Position numbers and translations under genes: made by a program
IMG/VR virus record: IMGVR_UViG_3300034152_000478
Span: 1 to 64,000 of that record
Source: a virus
Length of the DNA stretch: 64,000 nucleotides
Strand: one strand, 5' to 3'
Shown: positions 3,857 to 15,445 of the stretch, in pieces
Layout of the letters: every line of letters starts with the position of its first letter
Position numbering within the stretch: position 1 is the stretch's first letter
The notes under the pieces: model-generated
Database searches by the model: none
What the model was told of the DNA's origin: nothing
What the model saw: the letters and a program-made list of their open reading frames with translations, nothing else

Positions 3857-4588
3857 ATGTTGGTCTACAAGGCGACCAACTTACTTAACAACAAATCCTA
3901 TATAGGCAAGACTGTTAAGACACTGAGAGTTAGGCGTCTTGAGCATGAAAATGCGGCATTACGAAGATGCGATAATTGTATTTTGCATAAGGCCCTTAGG
4001 AAATATGGTGCAGATAATTTTCAATGGGAAATTATTGCTGTTGCTGAATCACAAATTCGATTAAGTGCATTGGAAGCTCAATACATAGAACATTTTGATA
4101 CATTTCGTAATGGTTATAACAGCACGATCGGTGGTGAAGGGACTTGTGGATTCAGATTTTCTGATATGCAAAAGGAACAGCTATCGCAGATACATCGTGG
4201 CAAACACTTATCAAGAAAACATCGTGATAGTATTAGTCGGGCTGTTGCAAGACGATGGATAAACAAAGATAGCAGAAGCAAATTGATTGCAGGCAGAACA
4301 CGAGTTGGACGTTTTCTATCTGATGAAGCTATACTAAAACGCAATCAAACATCTAAGAGCCGCAATATTGATTATGGTGTTCATAGAAGAGGTACTGAGC
4401 TTGATGAAGAGCATCGCCAGCATATTGCACAAGGGCATCAAAAGAAGTCTAAATTGTCATGGGAGGATGTTGCTGTCATCAGAAGTGAAAGAGCTAAAGG
4501 AACTGCTCTGAAGACTTTGGCTGCTAAATTTCATGTTACTGCAGCTACCATTTCAGATATAGCGAACTATAAAACTTGGAAAACATAG
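3857..4588 (+). CDS. GIY-YIG homing endonuclease (NUMOD3-like repeats, C-terminal HTH)
   Basis: LVYKATNLLNNKSYIGKT...R..EH, NGYNSTIGGEG. Confidence 0.9.
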   Translation: MLVYKATNLLNNKSYIGKTVKTLRVRRLEHENAALRRCDNCILHKALRKYGADNFQWEIIAVAESQIRLSALEAQYIEHFDTFRNGYNSTIGGEGTCGFRFSDMQKEQLSQIHRGKHLSRKHRDSISRAVARRWINKDSRSKLIAGRTRVGRFLSDEAILKRNQTSKSRNIDYGVHRRGTELDEEHRQHIAQGHQKKSKLSWEDVAVIRSERAKGTALKTLAAKFHVTAATISDIANYKTWKT

Positions 4589-4594
4589 AGGTGT

Positions 4595-5560
4595 ATGATG
4601 ACCTTCAAAAAATACCCAAGCATCGAAAACAGCTATAGAGACAAATTCGTACAGTATATGCTGGACCAGTATCCGGAGCTGTGCGACGCGGTTTACATCG
4701 TCACTGAAAAAATCGACGGTTCCAACATCCAATTGATCTTTGAACCTTCTAAGCCAGTACAGGTTGCTTCGCGTAATCGGGTATTAACACCTGGCGAAGA
4801 CTTTTTCGGTGTTTGGGATGTGCTACAGGATGTCGAATTGGCCGCGCTGATTAACACTCTGACGCTGTTTGTCGACAAAACCCATCAGACAATCAATCTG
4901 TATGGTGAACTTTTTGGACCTGGAATTCAGAGACGTATTGACTACGGAGACAAGCGTCGTCTGTTGTTTTTCGATGCAGCGATCAATGAAGAGCTGATTC
5001 CACAGGGCGAATTTGTGCAGTTTATGAGCTTGCATGGTTTTCCGAATCTGATGGTTCCTATTGTAACTGTCATCAATACGCTGCAGGCTGCTCTTGACTG
5101 GAGCGTCGAAGATTCTGTTACCAGAGTCAATCCTGATGGTCATAGCGTCCAAGAGAAACGATGTATGGAAGGTGTGGTTATTAAGCCACGCGATAAGGTG
5201 TATCGATCTCATACTGGCAGTACTTTTTACCTCAAGAAGAAAGGTGAGAAGTTCGGCGAAAAAGAGCAGAAGGTCAAAGTGCCGCGTGAGCAGAAGGAAT
5301 ACCGCGAAGAAGTAATCCAGATGTATGAAACGTTTTTTGGCTTGATCAATGAGAATAGGATCAAGAGCGTGTTTTCTAAACATGGTGAAATCGAAGAGCC
5401 TCGTCAAATCGGTGACTACATCAAGCTCGTAATGGCTGATGCCAAAGAGGAGTTTCTCAAAGATTACGAAGATGAGTTGGCACCGTTCAACAAAGATGAG
5501 CTAAAATACGTTTTTAATGTGGGCAACATGATAGTTGGATTGTTAAAGGAGTATCTATGA
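4595..5560 (+). CDS. RNA ligase, Rnl2 family
   Basis: FKKYPSIEN N-terminus; motif I TEKIDGSN; LYGELFG; FFDA; EGVVIKP; LKKK; C-terminal INENRIKSVFSKHG domain typical of T4 Rnl2. Confidence 0.9.
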   Translation: MMTFKKYPSIENSYRDKFVQYMLDQYPELCDAVYIVTEKIDGSNIQLIFEPSKPVQVASRNRVLTPGEDFFGVWDVLQDVELAALINTLTLFVDKTHQTINLYGELFGPGIQRRIDYGDKRRLLFFDAAINEELIPQGEFVQFMSLHGFPNLMVPIVTVINTLQAALDWSVEDSVTRVNPDGHSVQEKRCMEGVVIKPRDKVYRSHTGSTFYLKKKGEKFGEKEQKVKVPREQKEYREEVIQMYETFFGLINENRIKSVFSKHGEIEEPRQIGDYIKLVMADAKEEFLKDYEDELAPFNKDELKYVFNVGNMIVGLLKEYL

Positions 5561-9833: not shown

Positions 9834-9908
9834 GGGTCCGAAGCTTTAAAAGTGAAGCACGAGGCTTTTAACCTCGGGAACAAGGGGCAGTACCTTGCGG
9901 ACCTACCA
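9834..9908 (+). tRNA. tRNA-Lys(TTT), non-canonical T-loop
   Basis: CGAGG-CTTTTAA-CCTCG anticodon arm; A8; T-loop GGCAGTA; ACCA. Confidence 0.8.
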
Positions 9909-12681: not shown

Positions 12682-14265
12682 ATGAACACGAGACTCTTTA
12701 AGAATCAAAGAGGTGCGTTGGCCCCTAAGGCTGACACTGTGAACGACGCTGGTGGAGTCGCCTACAAGCGTACCGACAAGGAAGCCCTGGCGCAGTACGC
12801 GCTGACTGGCACCTTTGGCAATGCGTTTTACGTTACTGCCGAAGTCCAGCTTGATAGGGCTCTGGATCTGGCTGACAAGGTGGATGACGCTTTCGTCGCC
12901 GGTCTGGCTGTCTATGCTCGCCAGTTTGGCTACATGAAGGACATGCCTGCCTTTTTGCTGGCTGTCCTGTGTGCTCGTCAGAGCAAGTATGTCGAGTTCG
13001 TTTTCGAGCGGGTAATCGATAATGCTCGTATGCTGCGTACTTTCGTTCAGATTCTGCGTAGCGGTCTGACTGGAAGAAAGTCTTTCGGTCGGCGTATTAA
13101 GCGACTAATTCGCAACTGGCTTGCTAATAAGTCTGACGACGCGCTTTTCCGTGCGACCGTTGGTCAGAATCCGTCTATGTCTGATATCATCAAGATGGTT
13201 CACCCTAAGGCTGAGGGTCGTTCACGCAATGCTCTCTATGGGTACCTGCTTGACAAGAAGTACGACGGACGCTCTCTACCTAAGTTGGTAAAGGCGTTTG
13301 AGCGCTTCAAGGATACTCCTGGCACGGTTGAGATCCCTGATCTGCCGTTTCGCATGCTGACTCACCTGCCGCTTAAGACTGAGCAGTGGGTGCAGATTGC
13401 AAAGAATATGCCTTGGACTGCCCTTCGTATGAACCTGAATACACTTGCGCGTCATGGTGTTTTCAACGTGGATGGCATGACTGAGTTGATTGCTGGCAAG
13501 TTGCGCGATCCGCAGCTTATCAGACGTGCCAAGGTGTTCCCTTACCAGCTTTTGGCTGCGTATCTGTTTACGCTTGATACTCGGGAGGTTCCGAACGAGA
13601 TTATCGAAGCACTTCAGGATGCGATGGAAATCGCAATTGAGAATGTGCCAGAAATGGATATTCGCGTTGCTGTGTGTCCGGATGTCTCCGGATCGATGGA
13701 CTGGTGCAGCGTGACTGGTAATCGCGGCTCTGCTTCAAGCAAGATCAAGTGTACTCATGTTGCTGGTCTGATTTCGGCTATCTTCATGCGACGTGCGCGT
13801 GACACCATCTTGCTTCCATTCGAGTTTGGCGTCGTGAACATGCGCCTTAACAAGCGTGATAGTGTAATGACTAACGCTCGCAAGATTGCAGATATTGGCG
13901 GAGGCGGAACTAATGTATCTGCTCCTCTCCAGTTGCTGAACAAGCGTAAGGAGAAGGTGGATGCTGTGATTATCGTCTCTGATAACGAGTCTTGGGTTGA
14001 TACTCATGGCTGGTCTGCTCGGCGCGGTACTCGTACCATGTCTGAGTGGGGCACGCTGCGCCAGCGTTGTCCTGAGGCACGCCTGGTGCTTATGGATCTT
14101 GTTGTTGGCGACAATACCCAGGCGCGAAACAAGGCTCAGGAAGTCTACAACGTTGCTGGGTTCTCTGACACGGCGTTGGGTCTTGTGGCCGACTTTGTCG
14201 TAAATGGACCCAACACTCAGCTCGTGGAGGTAATCGAGCAGCATATCCCTGAGCTTGAAGGCTAA
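12682..14265 (+). CDS. rsr: Ro60/TROVE domain RNA-binding protein (Rsr-like) with C-terminal vWA
   Basis: NDAGGVAY N-terminus, TGTFGNAFY, MPWTALRMNLNTL, PYQLLAAY, vWA MIDAS DVSGSM, GGTN, VSDNESW, VAGFSD. Confidence 0.95.
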   Translation: MNTRLFKNQRGALAPKADTVNDAGGVAYKRTDKEALAQYALTGTFGNAFYVTAEVQLDRALDLADKVDDAFVAGLAVYARQFGYMKDMPAFLLAVLCARQSKYVEFVFERVIDNARMLRTFVQILRSGLTGRKSFGRRIKRLIRNWLANKSDDALFRATVGQNPSMSDIIKMVHPKAEGRSRNALYGYLLDKKYDGRSLPKLVKAFERFKDTPGTVEIPDLPFRMLTHLPLKTEQWVQIAKNMPWTALRMNLNTLARHGVFNVDGMTELIAGKLRDPQLIRRAKVFPYQLLAAYLFTLDTREVPNEIIEALQDAMEIAIENVPEMDIRVAVCPDVSGSMDWCSVTGNRGSASSKIKCTHVAGLISAIFMRRARDTILLPFEFGVVNMRLNKRDSVMTNARKIADIGGGGTNVSAPLQLLNKRKEKVDAVIIVSDNESWVDTHGWSARRGTRTMSEWGTLRQRCPEARLVLMDLVVGDNTQARNKAQEVYNVAGFSDTALGLVADFVVNGPNTQLVEVIEQHIPELEG

Positions 14266-14272
14266 ACAAAAT

Positions 14273-14357
14273 ATACCGAGATGCTGGATTGTGTTTACAT
14301 GCATAAGATTAAGGATTTTATCAGCAAAAAACGACACAACCACCCCTTGCTCGGTGT
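14273..14357 (+). ncRNA. Y-RNA-like unit 1 (AU-rich hairpin cargo)
   Basis: ATACCGAG-ATGC...TTGTGT-TTACAT...ACACAA...CTTG-CTCGGTGT. Confidence 0.75.
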
Positions 14358-14372
14358 TTTAACTTGACGAAC

Positions 14373-14485
14373 GTGCAGGAATGCCGACAAGTGATTACAT
14401 GGATAAAGCATTTTTATGTGAGTTGGTTCAAGCCCGACACGCTGCGGTAGCAGTGAAAAAGTCACTGTCATTTTTTGTCCTGCAT
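14373..14485 (+). ncRNA. Y-RNA-like unit 2 (T-arm plus short hairpin cargo)
   Basis: GTGCAGGA-ATGC...ACAT...GTTGG-TTCAAGC-CCGAC...TTTG-TCCTGCAT. Confidence 0.75.
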
Positions 14486-14522
14486 ACTTTATAGGCTGGG
14501 CATCCTTATCTGCCTGCCAGAA

Positions 14523-14584
14523 GTTGGAATGCGCTTGTGTTTACATGTGACATACAAAAGAAACACGAGCACACCTTGTCCAAC
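14523..14584 (+). ncRNA. Y-RNA-like unit 3 (minimal scaffold)
   Basis: GTTGGA-ATGC-GCTTGTGTTT-ACAT...AAACACGAGC...CTTG-TCCAAC. Confidence 0.75.
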
Positions 14585-14600
14585 CGACTTTGAAAACAAT

Positions 14601-14665
14601 CCGGAATGCTGATTGTGAGTACATGACTTGTAATCATTGACCGCTCTCAATCAATCCTTGTCCGG
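14601..14665 (+). ncRNA. Y-RNA-like unit 4 (Thr-UGU anticodon-stem-loop-like cargo)
   Basis: CCGGA-ATGC-TGATTGTGAGT-AC-ATGA-CTTGTAA-TCAT...GCTCTCAATCA...CTTG-TCCGG. Confidence 0.75.
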
Positions 14666-14683
14666 TACTAATACGATAACGAT

Positions 14684-14752
14684 CCGGGATGCTGGCTGTG
14701 TGTACATGCTATGAAAAAGCTCCTTTATTCCACACTGCTAAAACTTGCCCGG
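14684..14752 (+). ncRNA. Y-RNA-like unit 5 (Phe-GAA anticodon-loop-like cargo)
   Basis: CCGGG-ATGC...ACAT-GCT-ATGAAAA-AGC...CTTG-CCCGG. Confidence 0.72.
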
Positions 14753-14769
14753 CTCTAAAATAACAACTC

Positions 14770-14893
14770 ACTGGGATGCTGTTGTGTATACATTCAGAGG
14801 TAGCTTAACAGGTAGAGCAGCGGCGAAAGCCGAAGACGAAGGTTCGAGTCCTTCCCATTGAGCCAAAAACTACTCAACAATTACTTGCCCAGT
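14770..14893 (+). ncRNA. Y-RNA-like unit 6 containing a complete anticodon-less tRNA cloverleaf (14794-14865)
   Basis: ACTGGG-ATGC...ACAT-[TCAGAGG..D arm..CGGC-GAAA-GCCG..GAAGG-TTCGAGT-CCTTC-CCATTGA-GCCA]...CTTG-CCCAGT. Confidence 0.8.
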
Positions 14894-14904
14894 TCTTTAA
14901 TGAT

Positions 14905-15043
14905 AGGTTTGGAATGCCTGTTGTGATTACATGCTTGTAACGCCGGTAATGTTGGTTCGAATCCAGCCGTCCCCGATTTATGGGGGCGTCGTCTAATGGC
15001 AGGACACCGTTAAAATAGTCACAGCGATCCCTCGTCCGAGCCT
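14905..15043 (+). ncRNA. Y-RNA-like unit 7, YrlA-like circularly permuted tRNA domain
   Basis: AGGTTTGGA-ATGC...ACAT; T-arm GTTGG-TTCGAAT-CCAGC; looped acceptor CGTCCCC/GGGGGCG; D-arm GTCT..GGAC; CTCG-TCCGAGCCT. Confidence 0.82.
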
Positions 15044-15060
15044 TCACCAAAGAATAACAT

Positions 15061-15196
15061 GACGGGATGCTGTTAGGTTTACATGATCAGGAACTGAATG
15101 TCATAGGTTCGAATCCTATCTCCTCGACCACTAACGAGGAGTAGCTCAGTTGGATAGAGCGTCAGTAAAATGCGACTTGACGAACCCTTGCCCGTC
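15061..15196 (+). ncRNA. Y-RNA-like unit 8, YrlA-like circularly permuted tRNA domain
   Basis: GACGGG-ATGC...ACAT; ACTGA/TCAGT stem; T-arm ATAGG-TTCGAAT-CCTAT; acceptor CTCCTCG-ACCACTAA-CGAGGAG; D-arm GCTC..GAGC; CTTG-CCCGTC. Confidence 0.85.
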
Positions 15197-15206
15197 TTTT
15201 TAAATT

Positions 15207-15337
15207 TGAGGTATGCAGGCGTGGGTCCACATGGGACCCTGTGCAGTGGACATCTGGCCCGGCATTTTGATTCGCAAGCGCGGAGGGAGCCCAGCCGGGG
15301 AATAACTGCTCCCCAGGGGTCCCGCCTACATATCTCA
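15207..15337 (+). ncRNA. divergent unit 9, GC-rich structured RNA lacking the CTTG motif
   Basis: TGAGGTATGCAGGCG/CGCCTACATATCTCA closing stem (14 of 15 positions pair); ATGC-N12-ACAT spacing kept. Confidence 0.6.
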
Positions 15338-15351
15338 TAATAAAAAACTAT

Positions 15352-15445
15352 GCTGGAATGCTGTTTCGGGTTTACATGTGACCATCATAACATCTATGCT
15401 CGGGAGACCGGGCACTGACAACGACTCGGGCATACCTTGTCCAGC
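15352..15445 (+). ncRNA. Y-RNA-like unit 10 (GNRA hairpin cargo), followed by T7
   Basis: GCTGGA-ATGC-TGTTTCGGGTT-TACAT...TGCTCGG-GAGA-CCGGGCA...GACTCGGGCA..CTTG-TCCAGC-TTTTTTT. Confidence 0.75.

What the first reader, a model, noticed from the sequence alone, without database searches (positions are those of the whole stretch)
14303..14940. Isolated anticodon-loop mimics as cargo (possible anticodon-nuclease decoys)
Seen: the unit 4 cargo is ATGA-CTTGTAA-TCAT (14623-14637), a 7-nt loop with the C32-U33-UGU-A37-A38 pattern of tRNA-Thr(UGU). The same CTTGTAA follows ACATG in unit 7 (14934-14940). Unit 5 has GCT-ATGAAAA-AGC (14708-14720; U33-GAA-A37, Phe-like). Unit 1 can form ATAAGA-TTAAGGA-TTTTAT (AAG with G37, Leu-like; weaker). 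Established: anticodon nucleases such as PrrC, RloC, VapC and colicins D/E5 cut tRNA anticodon loops. Inference: Ro60-protected anticodon loops could titrate such nucleases or anticodon-modifying enzymes. No Thr or Phe tRNA gene lies in this window.
Basis: partly seen in the sequence, partly recalled or inferred. Interest (0 to 1): 0.75.

Follow-up and report, generated by a model that had tools for sequence, protein, structure and literature searches.

The report
Anticodon-arm mimics on phage Y RNAs
Behind a phage's Ro60 gene sit ten small RNA genes, and some carry hairpins built like tRNA anticodon arms, a design that recurs far above chance in related phages and may bait proteins that read or cut anticodons, though that role is untested.

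Summary
All four motifs are at the stated coordinates, in units 1, 4, 5 and 7 of a ten-unit Y-RNA-like array. The array starts 10 nt after the stop of a phage Ro60 gene, in a 150.9-kb IMG/VR phage.

I called 143 distinct units from 44 phage Ro60 loci.
- 7-nt loops are the commonest non-T hairpin loops.
- About a third read C32-U33-NNN-A37-A/C38.
- "CU" starts are 14 of 44 in 7-nt loops and 3 of 93 in other loop sizes.

Fifteen of 42 units with a T arm have a 5-bp stem and 7-nt loop exactly 4-5 nt before the T stem, as in tRNA.

- **Unit 7** is not an isolated loop. It is a permuted tRNA with the scaffold inserted in the anticodon stem. ARAGORN calls the rejoined halves tRNA-Tyr(GUA), loop UUGUAAC.
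- **Unit 4** is a stand-alone 4-bp arm. Six phages share it, with U33 invariant and one compensatory pair.
- **Units 5 and 1** are weak or decayed.

The mimicry is therefore supported. The anticodon-nuclease decoy role is untested and remains a minority reading.

Other agents of this scan noted the same design in other phages. I found no published description.

The parts
12682..14265 (+). Ro60 (TROVE + Ro60-type vWA) gene, 527 aa. The RNA array starts 10 nt after its stop.
   Evidence: Pfam vWA_Ro60 2.6e-16 and TROVE 3.3e-8. Thousands of Ro60 homologues.
14275..15445 (+). Array of ten Y-RNA-like units. Shared scaffold: terminal stem, AUGC opposite CUUG, second helix, invariant (U/C)ACAU.
   Evidence: Rfam YrlA hits on unit 8 (45.3 bits) and unit 7 (22.1 bits), both below the gathering score of 69.
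14600..14666 (+). Unit 4: scaffold carrying only a short anticodon-arm-like hairpin.
   Evidence: Homologous units in L008, L003, L190, L137 and L164.
14623..14637 (+). Unit 4 hairpin AUGA / CUUGUAA / UCAU (loop 14627-14633). The stem starts inside the invariant ACAU.
   Evidence: Pair probabilities 0.48-0.87, against 0.06 or less for the rival UACA/UGUA pairing. Stem 100% paired in six phages with one compensatory pair.
14683..14753 (+). Unit 5, with hairpin GCU / AUGAAAA / AGC at 14708-14720. A weak candidate: 3 bp and A32.
   Evidence: Pair probabilities about 0.57. Orthologues: GC/AUGAUAA/GC in L003 and an 11-nt loop in L008.
14275..14361 (+). Unit 1, with hairpin 14303-14321 (nominal loop UUAAGGA at 14309-14315), predicted to close to a triloop.
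   Evidence: Orthologues carry AUUGAAA, AUUGAAG or UUGAAAG.
14908..15040 (+). Unit 7: permuted tRNA-like domain with the scaffold inserted in the 5' strand of the anticodon stem.
   Evidence: ARAGORN calls the rejoined halves tRNA-Tyr(gta). Rfam YrlA 22.1 bits.
14933..14946 (+). Unit 7 anticodon-arm part: G30 C31 (14933-14934), loop UUGUAAC (14935-14941), G39 C40 (14942-14943), C41 G42 G43 (14944-14946).
   Evidence: The same layout was verified by script in L008, L181, L159, L139 and L137.
15007..15009 (+). Unit 7 CCG (positions 27-29). It pairs across the scaffold insertion with CGG at 14944-14946 and completes a 5-bp anticodon stem.
   Evidence: L181 has CGG/CCG at the same place, a compensatory swap.
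14951..15005 (+). Unit 7 T arm (14951-14967), acceptor stem closed by a loop (14968-14988) and D arm (14991-15005).
15061..15196 (+). Unit 8: classical YrlA-like unit. The seven nt before the anticodon-stem 3' strand (AUCAGGA) read as a Leu(CAG)-type loop.
   Evidence: Rfam YrlA 45.3 bits. ARAGORN calls tRNA-Leu(cag) after rejoining.

Best explanation
The hairpins are tRNA anticodon-arm modules displayed on Ro60-type Y-RNA scaffolds.

Each of the ten units has a two-helix handle whose ends pair. By analogy with Y RNAs this handle is the presumed Ro60 docking site (inferred). Each unit also has an invariant UACAU, from which the cargo projects.

In this phage family the cargo is a tRNA or a piece of one, and the anticodon loop plus the 3' strand of its stem always follow UACAU directly.
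- **Unit 7** keeps a whole tRNA body. The handle is inserted between positions 29 and 30 of the anticodon stem. Three pairs form across the insertion and two within the hairpin, closing the loop UUGUAAC.
- **Unit 8** has the handle at position 31/32.
- **Unit 4** keeps only a shortened arm of 4 bp with the loop CUUGUAA.
- **Units 5 and 1** are weaker or decaying versions.

Function (inferred, not shown): what is conserved is the loop architecture (C32, U33, A37, A38), not the triplet. So the arms most likely serve as binding sites for proteins that recognise tRNA anticodon arms. They would either compete with real tRNAs or tether such proteins to the Ro60 particle.
For: - **Ro60 next to the array:**. 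The scaffold motif lies almost only on the Ro60 strand in 68 phage Ro60 loci (159 matches against 21).
- **Loop composition:** among 44 distinct non-T 7-nt loops, C32 is 21, U33 23, U36 21, A37 26 and A38 25. A CU start is seen in 14 of 44, against 5.6% expected (P 6e-8), and in 3 of 93 loops of 5, 6, 8 or 9 nt (Fisher 7.6e-6).
- **Shuffled-cargo null:**
- **tRNA geometry:** 15 of 42 T-arm units have a 5-bp/7-nt hairpin 4-5 nt before the T stem. Hairpins with 5-, 6- or 8-nt loops at the same 4-5-nt spacing give 0-2.
- **Composite 5-bp anticodon stems:** 3+2, 2+3, 1+4 or 0+5 pairs, including a CCG/CGG to CGG/CCG swap.
- **ARAGORN:** it of the 18 units that have a composite-stem candidate as tRNAs after rejoining. 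These include W unit 7 as Tyr(gta).
- **Unit-4 family:** same stem in six phages with one compensatory pair. Loops are CUUGUAA (twice), CUUGAAA, CUAUUAA, AUUCUAA and AUUUUA.
- **Same loop on different stems:** CUGAUAA in four phages, CUUGUAA in four.
- **Not recent copies:** the stems are AU-rich and start in ACAU, unlike the GC-rich arms of the phages' own tRNA genes.
Against: - Unit 4 has 4 bp, not 5. Unit 5 has 3 bp and A32. The unit 1 loop is predicted to collapse.
- In the two closest relatives (Ro60 84% and 83% identical) the unit 4 loop is AUUUUA (6 nt) or AUUCUAA, and the unit 5 loop is 7 or 11 nt. Selection on the small arms is therefore weak in this clade.
- Several displayed triplets are not natural anticodons (AUU, AUC, AAC).
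- The unit caller requires scaffold pairing, and most loops come from MFE folds, so the counts carry method bias. Homologous units are not fully independent.
- No expression, Ro60-binding or protein-partner data exist.
- The 2-bp cis stem of unit 7 has low probability in isolation (0.13).
Confidence: 0.55

Rival explanations
1. Relics with no anticodon-specific role. The cargos descend from tRNAs. The small hairpins are what is left after the tRNA body was deleted, and they now only cap the Y-RNA stem, like the small-loop Y RNAs YrlB and Yrn2.
For: - Loop sequence and length drift between the closest relatives for units 4, 5 and 1.
- L003 unit g keeps only about 9 nt where L008 and W carry a whole tRNA-like domain, so cargos can be lost.
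- The stems are short (3-4 bp).
- Chen et al. [quoted passage not shown]
Against: - The same loops sit on different, compensating stems in distant phages.
- U33 is 6 of 6 in the unit-4 family.
- The CU...A signature is confined to 7-nt loops and is 15-40 times above the shuffled level.
- The stems are not copies of current tRNA genes, so the signal is not recent copying.
Confidence: 0.27
2. The arms are decoys or competitive inhibitors for host anticodon nucleases (PrrC, RloC, VapC, colicin-like, retron or PARIS effectors), held and protected by Ro60.
For: - The anticodon-loop architecture is conserved while the triplets vary.
- The phage carries 12 tRNA genes and a T4 Rnl2-type RNA ligase in the same RNA island.
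- Hughes et al. 2020 (PMC7790460) proposed that the YrlA tRNA-like domain could be a competitive inhibitor of an anticodon nuclease.
- In L152 the displayed CGU and GGU loops match the anticodons of that phage's own tRNA-Thr genes.
Against: - Nothing here ties any unit to a nuclease.
- PrrC's target loop, Lys(UUU), was not seen among the loops listed.
- Many nucleases need the full tRNA or its modifications (my own knowledge, not tested).
- Overlap between displayed triplets and tRNA genes in the same locus is not significant (7 against 3.97, P 0.078, with T loops not excluded).
- No RtcB is present in the genome.
Confidence: 0.13
3. Chance: ordinary AU-rich hairpins that happen to fit a loose U33/R37 rule.
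For: The rule is loose (about 15% of random 7-nt loops fit it) and T loops also fit. Within this window only three or four examples exist.
Against: - Window-level P is 0.003-0.013.
- Family-wide enrichment is strong.
- tRNA geometry holds.
- ARAGORN recognises the rejoined units as tRNAs.
Confidence: 0.05

Closest known systems
YrlA (Y RNA-like A; Rfam RF02553) with bacterial or phage Ro60/Rsr (Chen et al. 2014, PMC4201824; Wang et al. 2018, bioRxiv 10.1101/312249)
   Same: - Encoded beside Ro60 on the same strand.
- A long stem is formed by the two ends.
- The tRNA-like domain is permuted, with the T arm before the D arm and the acceptor stem closed by a loop.
- A conserved YUAY lies just before the stem-loop upstream of the T arm; here it is the invariant (U/C)UACAU.
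- Units 8 and 7 give Rfam YrlA hits.
   Different: - Scores are below the gathering threshold.
- The handle motif is AUGC/CUUG, not GNCGAAN0-1G.
- There are ten units in a row instead of one or two.
- Published YrlA is said to lack the anticodon loop, and its upstream stem-loop is read as a variable arm. Here that hairpin has anticodon-arm geometry and the C32-U33...A37-A38 signature.
- Some units carry that arm alone.
Deinococcus radiodurans Yrn1 (Chen et al. 2014)
   Same: A Y RNA modelled with a possible anticodon arm with a 5-bp stem.
   Different: - The Yrn1 loop has 6 nt, and no anticodon-loop sequence signature is reported.
- The orientation of the T and D elements differs.
- It is a single gene, not an array.
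YrlB / Yrn2 small Y RNAs
   Same: Ro60-bound long hairpins with a small loop and no tRNA body, encoded next to a tRNA-like Y RNA. Units 1, 3, 4 and 5 have this overall shape.
   Different: Their loops are described as small and pyrimidine-rich. Unit 4 and its relatives have a 7-nt loop with the anticodon-loop pattern.
tRNA anticodon stem-loop
   Same: - 7-nt loop with Y32, U33, A37 and A38.
- In the tRNA-like units, a 5-bp stem followed by a 4-5-nt variable loop and the T arm.
- Reference set of 252 real phage tRNA arms: C32 65%, U33 94%, A37 82%, A38 65%.
   Different: - The stand-alone arms have 3-4 bp, are AU-rich and begin in the scaffold's ACAU.
- In the tRNA-like units the 5' strand of the stem is interrupted by the scaffold.
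- Some triplets are not natural anticodons.

Membership tests
Y RNA (Ro60 partner RNA, YrlA/YrlB type) | Encoded within a few kb of a Ro60 orthologue, on the same strand | tested here: met
   The array starts 10 nt after the Ro60 stop. The motif is strand-specific in 45 of 68 phage Ro60 loci.
Y RNA (Ro60 partner RNA, YrlA/YrlB type) | 5' and 3' ends pair into a long stem that carries a conserved Ro60-binding motif | tested here: inconclusive
   The stem is predicted in all ten units, with a conserved AUGC/CUUG internal loop. The motif differs from the published GNCGAAN0-1G, and binding cannot be tested here.
Y RNA (Ro60 partner RNA, YrlA/YrlB type) | Reaches the Rfam YrlA (RF02553) gathering score | tested here: not met
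   Unit 8 scores 45.3 bits (E 1.5e-8) and unit 7 scores 22.1 bits, against a gathering score of 69. Units 1, 4 and 5 give no hit.
Y RNA (Ro60 partner RNA, YrlA/YrlB type) | Conserved YUAY just before the stem-loop upstream of the T arm | tested here: met
   (U/C)ACAU is present in all ten units. The feature is described in PMC4201824.
Y RNA (Ro60 partner RNA, YrlA/YrlB type) | Physically bound by Ro60 | not testable with these tools
   Needs immunoprecipitation or in vitro binding.
tRNA anticodon arm | 7-nt loop with U33 and a purine at position 37 | tested here: met
   - Unit 4: CUUGUAA.
- Unit 5: AUGAAAA.
- Unit 7: UUGUAAC.
- Unit 1: nominally UUAAGGA, but predicted to close to a triloop.
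tRNA anticodon arm | 5-bp stem | tested here: not met
   Unit 4 has 4 bp and unit 5 has 3 bp. It is met only by unit 7, through a composite stem of 3 pairs across the insertion plus 2 within the hairpin.
tRNA anticodon arm | Followed by a 4-5-nt variable loop and a T arm | tested here: inconclusive
   Met for unit 7 (UAAU, then the T arm at 14951) and for 15 of 42 T-arm units in relatives. Not met for units 1, 4 and 5, which have no tRNA body.
tRNA anticodon arm | The whole molecule is recognised as a tRNA by a tRNA finder | tested here: met
   Unit 7 with its halves rejoined is called tRNA-Tyr(gta) by ARAGORN. Sixteen further units in relatives are also called. This does not apply to units 1, 4 and 5.
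Anticodon-nuclease decoy (no curated family) | Bound or cut by an anticodon nuclease, or competes with its tRNA substrate | not testable with these tools
   Needs in vitro cleavage and competition assays, and phage genetics.

The most novel reading that the evidence does not exclude
Phage Ro60 particles are loaded with a panel of anticodon-arm and whole-tRNA mimics. These act as decoys or traps for host enzymes that attack or modify tRNA anticodon loops. The array would then be a counter-defence organ in the fight over tRNAs, and the Y scaffold a general display handle.
Probability: 0.15. Interest if true: 0.85.

Novelty: new variant of a known kind. Interest (0 to 1): 0.66.

Why it matters
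Bacterial Y RNAs are known tRNA mimics, but the published model says they lack an anticodon loop, and what they bind is still unknown.

These phage arrays show three things:
- The anticodon loop is retained.
- The scaffold is inserted at variable points in the 5' strand of the anticodon stem.
- The arm can be displayed alone.

This gives a concrete handle on the open question of what Y-RNA effector domains recognise. It also fits the proposed descent of Y RNAs from tRNAs, and it suggests testable links to tRNA-directed phage defence.

Tried and rejected
- **Megablast of the locus against deposited phages:** no match.
- **Pattern scans for the scaffold:** a 14-base pattern in viral contigs gave mostly single chance hits. 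A 21-base pattern gave 3 hits, of which only L129 was real. The one metagenome scan gave a chance hit in a coding region.
- **First two automatic unit callers:** they mis-set 3' ends and were replaced by the caller.
- **RNAalifold on five unit-7 orthologues:** it gave a non-tRNA consensus that breaks the D arm. I set it aside in favour of the tRNA-geometry reading.
- **My first reading of unit 7's CTTGTAA:** I took it as a two-strand linker pairing with the A-rich 3' linker (CUUU/AAAG in L129, CCUU/AAGG in L004, UUGU/ACAA in L003). The composite anticodon stem superseded this, but it is not excluded as an alternative conformation.
- **Recurrent UGUA as the complement of the invariant UACA:** low probability in unit 4 (0.06 or less).
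- **Displayed triplets against tRNA genes in the same locus:** no significant excess or avoidance (which did not exclude T loops).
- **Family-collapsed test on the first six arrays only:** my own tally of the output gave 3 hit families against 6 non-hit families, which was not significant before the sample was enlarged.

Full report
**Setting.** The window is the first 64 kb of a complete 150,882-bp IMG/VR phage record. ORF 12682-14265 (+) is a Ro60 orthologue (Pfam vWA_Ro60 2.6e-16, TROVE 3.3e-8). Ten nucleotides after its stop begins an array of ten units, 14275-15445.

Each unit has the same scaffold:
- a terminal stem made by its two ends;
- AUGC facing CUUG;
- a second helix;
- an invariant (U/C)ACAU.

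Rfam's YrlA model hits unit 8 (45.3 bits, E 1.5e-8) and unit 7 (22.1 bits), both below the gathering score of 69. Unit 6 holds a non-permuted tRNA-like fold with a 4-nt loop. So this is a phage Ro60 locus with a row of Y-RNA-like genes. The cargo is whatever lies between ACAU and the returning strand.

**The observation.** The genome has 12 tRNA genes and none for Thr or Phe.

Thermodynamic support differs between units:

| Unit | Hairpin | Pair probabilities |
|---|---|---|
| 4 | AUGA/CUUGUAA/UCAU | 0.48-0.87; the rival pairing of UACA with UGUA is 0.06 or less |
| 5 | 3-bp stem | about 0.57 |
| 1 | loop closed further by U-A and U-G | 0.97 and 0.79, leaving a triloop |

Against cargo shuffles, the window's small units have 3 such hairpins where 0.46 are expected (P 0.003).

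**Relatives.** Ro60 proteins 84%, 83%, 63% and 62% identical led to homologous arrays in L003, L008, L004 and L007. A Ro60 alignment then fetched 68 further phage Ro60 loci. In these 68 loci the 5' scaffold motif occurs 159 times on the Ro60 strand and 21 times on the other, in 45 of 68 loci. Arrays reach 11 units or more.

A caller that requires the scaffold helices found 163 units, of which 143 are distinct. The caller is circular for scaffold pairing, but it places no condition on the cargo.

**Are the loops anticodon-like?** In MFE folds of the 143 units, 7 nt is the commonest size among loops that are not T loops (55 of 289). Cargo-shuffled sets give 20.4 (maximum 28).

Among the 44 distinct 7-nt loops:
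- C is the commonest base at position 32 (21);
- U at 33 (23);
- U at 36 (21);
- A at 37 (26) and A at 38 (25).

A CU start occurs in 14 of 44, against 5.6% expected (P 6e-8). It occurs in only 3 of 93 loops of 5, 6, 8 or 9 nt (Fisher 7.6e-6). A folding-free enumeration of the first hairpin after ACAU gives the same picture.

The 252 distinct anticodon arms that ARAGORN called in the same loci and in this phage's genome show C32 65%, U33 94%, A37 82% and A38 65%. So about a third of the Y-unit 7-nt loops carry the tRNA signature.

**Geometry.** Fifteen of 42 units with a T arm have a 5-bp stem and 7-nt loop ending exactly 4 or 5 nt before the T stem. Hairpins with 5-, 6- or 8-nt loops at that spacing give 0-2. 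The loops include CUGAUAA (three), CUGUUAA (two), CUUGUAA, CUUGAAA, CUCCUAA and UUCAUAA.

In others the 5-bp anticodon stem is composite. One to three pairs form between the strand after the D arm and the strand before the variable loop. The rest form within the hairpin, and the total is always five:
- L008: 3+2;
- L181: 3+2, with a CGG/CCG swap relative to CCG/CGG;
- L159 and L139: 2+3;
- L137: 1+4.

The scaffold is therefore inserted at a variable point in the 5' strand of the anticodon stem. The loop and the 3' strand always follow ACAU.

After rejoining the halves in silico, ARAGORN of 18 such units tRNAs.

**Unit 7.** By this layout, unit 7 reads as follows:
- D arm 14991-15005;
- A26 at 15006;
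- CCG (27-29) at 15007-15009;
- the scaffold;
- ACAU;
- G30 C31 at 14933-14934;
- loop UUGUAAC at 14935-14941;
- G39 C40 C41 G42 G43 at 14942-14946;
- UAAU;
- T arm from 14951.

ARAGORN calls the rejoined sequence tRNA-Tyr(gta) with a full cloverleaf. It is not isolated cargo, and its register is GUA.

Unit 8 has the scaffold at 31/32, leaving AUCAGGA as a Leu(CAG)-type heptamer.

**Unit 4.** Its hairpin family is found in six phages. The stem AU[G/C]A / U[C/G]AU is paired in every sequence, and the third pair is G-C in three and C-G in three. The loops are CUUGUAA (W and L190), CUUGAAA, CUAUUAA, AUUCUAA and AUUUUA. U33 is invariant and A37 is 5 of 6, while positions 34-36 vary.

Against this, the two closest relatives have the least canonical loops, including one of 6 nt.

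**Units 5 and 1.**
- Unit 5 orthologues read GC/AUGAUAA/GC and an 11-nt loop.
- Unit 1 orthologues read AUUGAAA, AUUGAAG or UUGAAAG.

They resemble the canonical CUGAUAA and CUUGAAA loops seen in other phages, with A in place of C32. I treat them as decayed or marginal.

**Literature.**
- Chen et al. [quoted passage not shown] This is the same position as the hairpin studied here.
- Wang et al. 2018 state that YrlA lacks the anticodon loop, and cite a model in which YrlA arose from a dimeric tRNA transcript.
- Hughes et al. 2020 suggest that YrlA might competitively inhibit an anticodon nuclease.

I found no paper describing anticodon arms on phage Y-RNA arrays. Notes from other agents of this scan report the same design in other phages. 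These are not independent evidence.

**Function.** Nothing here tests function. The phage has a T4 Rnl2-type RNA ligase at 4595-5560 in the same tRNA island and no RtcB. Displayed triplets and tRNA genes in the same locus overlap no more than chance.

By my own hand tally of the loops listed (not a tool result), U36 is over-represented: 10 of 16 distinct CU-start loops, against 28% in real phage tRNAs. This is the t6A-type context.

I conclude that the arms are real anticodon-arm mimics. They most likely serve as protein-binding sites. The nuclease-decoy idea is a plausible but unproven special case.

Noticed in passing
window 14494-14519: A short hairpin (5-bp covarying stem, 8-nt loop with CCUUA) followed by (A/G)CCA sits after the unit-2-type unit. 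It recurs at the same place in L003, L008 and L004, and twice in L007. It looks like an acceptor-end or minihelix mimic, or a processing signal.
   Followed up: partly
L003 5391-5478; L008 5660-5750: A conserved, apparently structured element of about 85 nt lies between the unit-7-type and unit-8-type units in two relatives. It is absent from the window and has no Rfam hit.
   Followed up: no
L004 3470-3830; L007 3517-3880: A tmRNA gene (Rfam 122 and 119 bits) lies just upstream of Ro60 in two related phages. tRNAs, tmRNA and Y RNAs therefore form one RNA island.
   Followed up: no
window 3857-5560: A T4 Rnl2-type RNA ligase (4595-5560; RNA_ligase plus T4_Rnl2_C) lies next to a GIY-YIG endonuclease ORF. 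HNH endonuclease ORFs are scattered among the tRNA genes.
   Followed up: partly
window 9834-9905: Rfam calls a tRNA here (38.7 bits) that ARAGORN does not report.
   Followed up: no
L003 5479-5532: This is the orthologue of unit 8. Its whole tRNA-like cargo is gone, leaving about 9 nt after ACAU. Cargos can be lost while the scaffold is kept.
   Followed up: partly
L152 5095-5152 and 5647-5726: Two arm-only units display CUCGUAC and CUGGUAC. The same locus encodes tRNA-Thr(CGU) and tRNA-Thr(GGU) genes with different stems and different 32/38 bases.
   Followed up: partly
window 14770-14893: Unit 6 carries a non-permuted tRNA-like fold (Rfam tRNA 46.5 bits) joined through its acceptor ends, with a GAAA tetraloop in place of the anticodon loop. 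L007 6493-6614 is its orthologue.
   Followed up: partly
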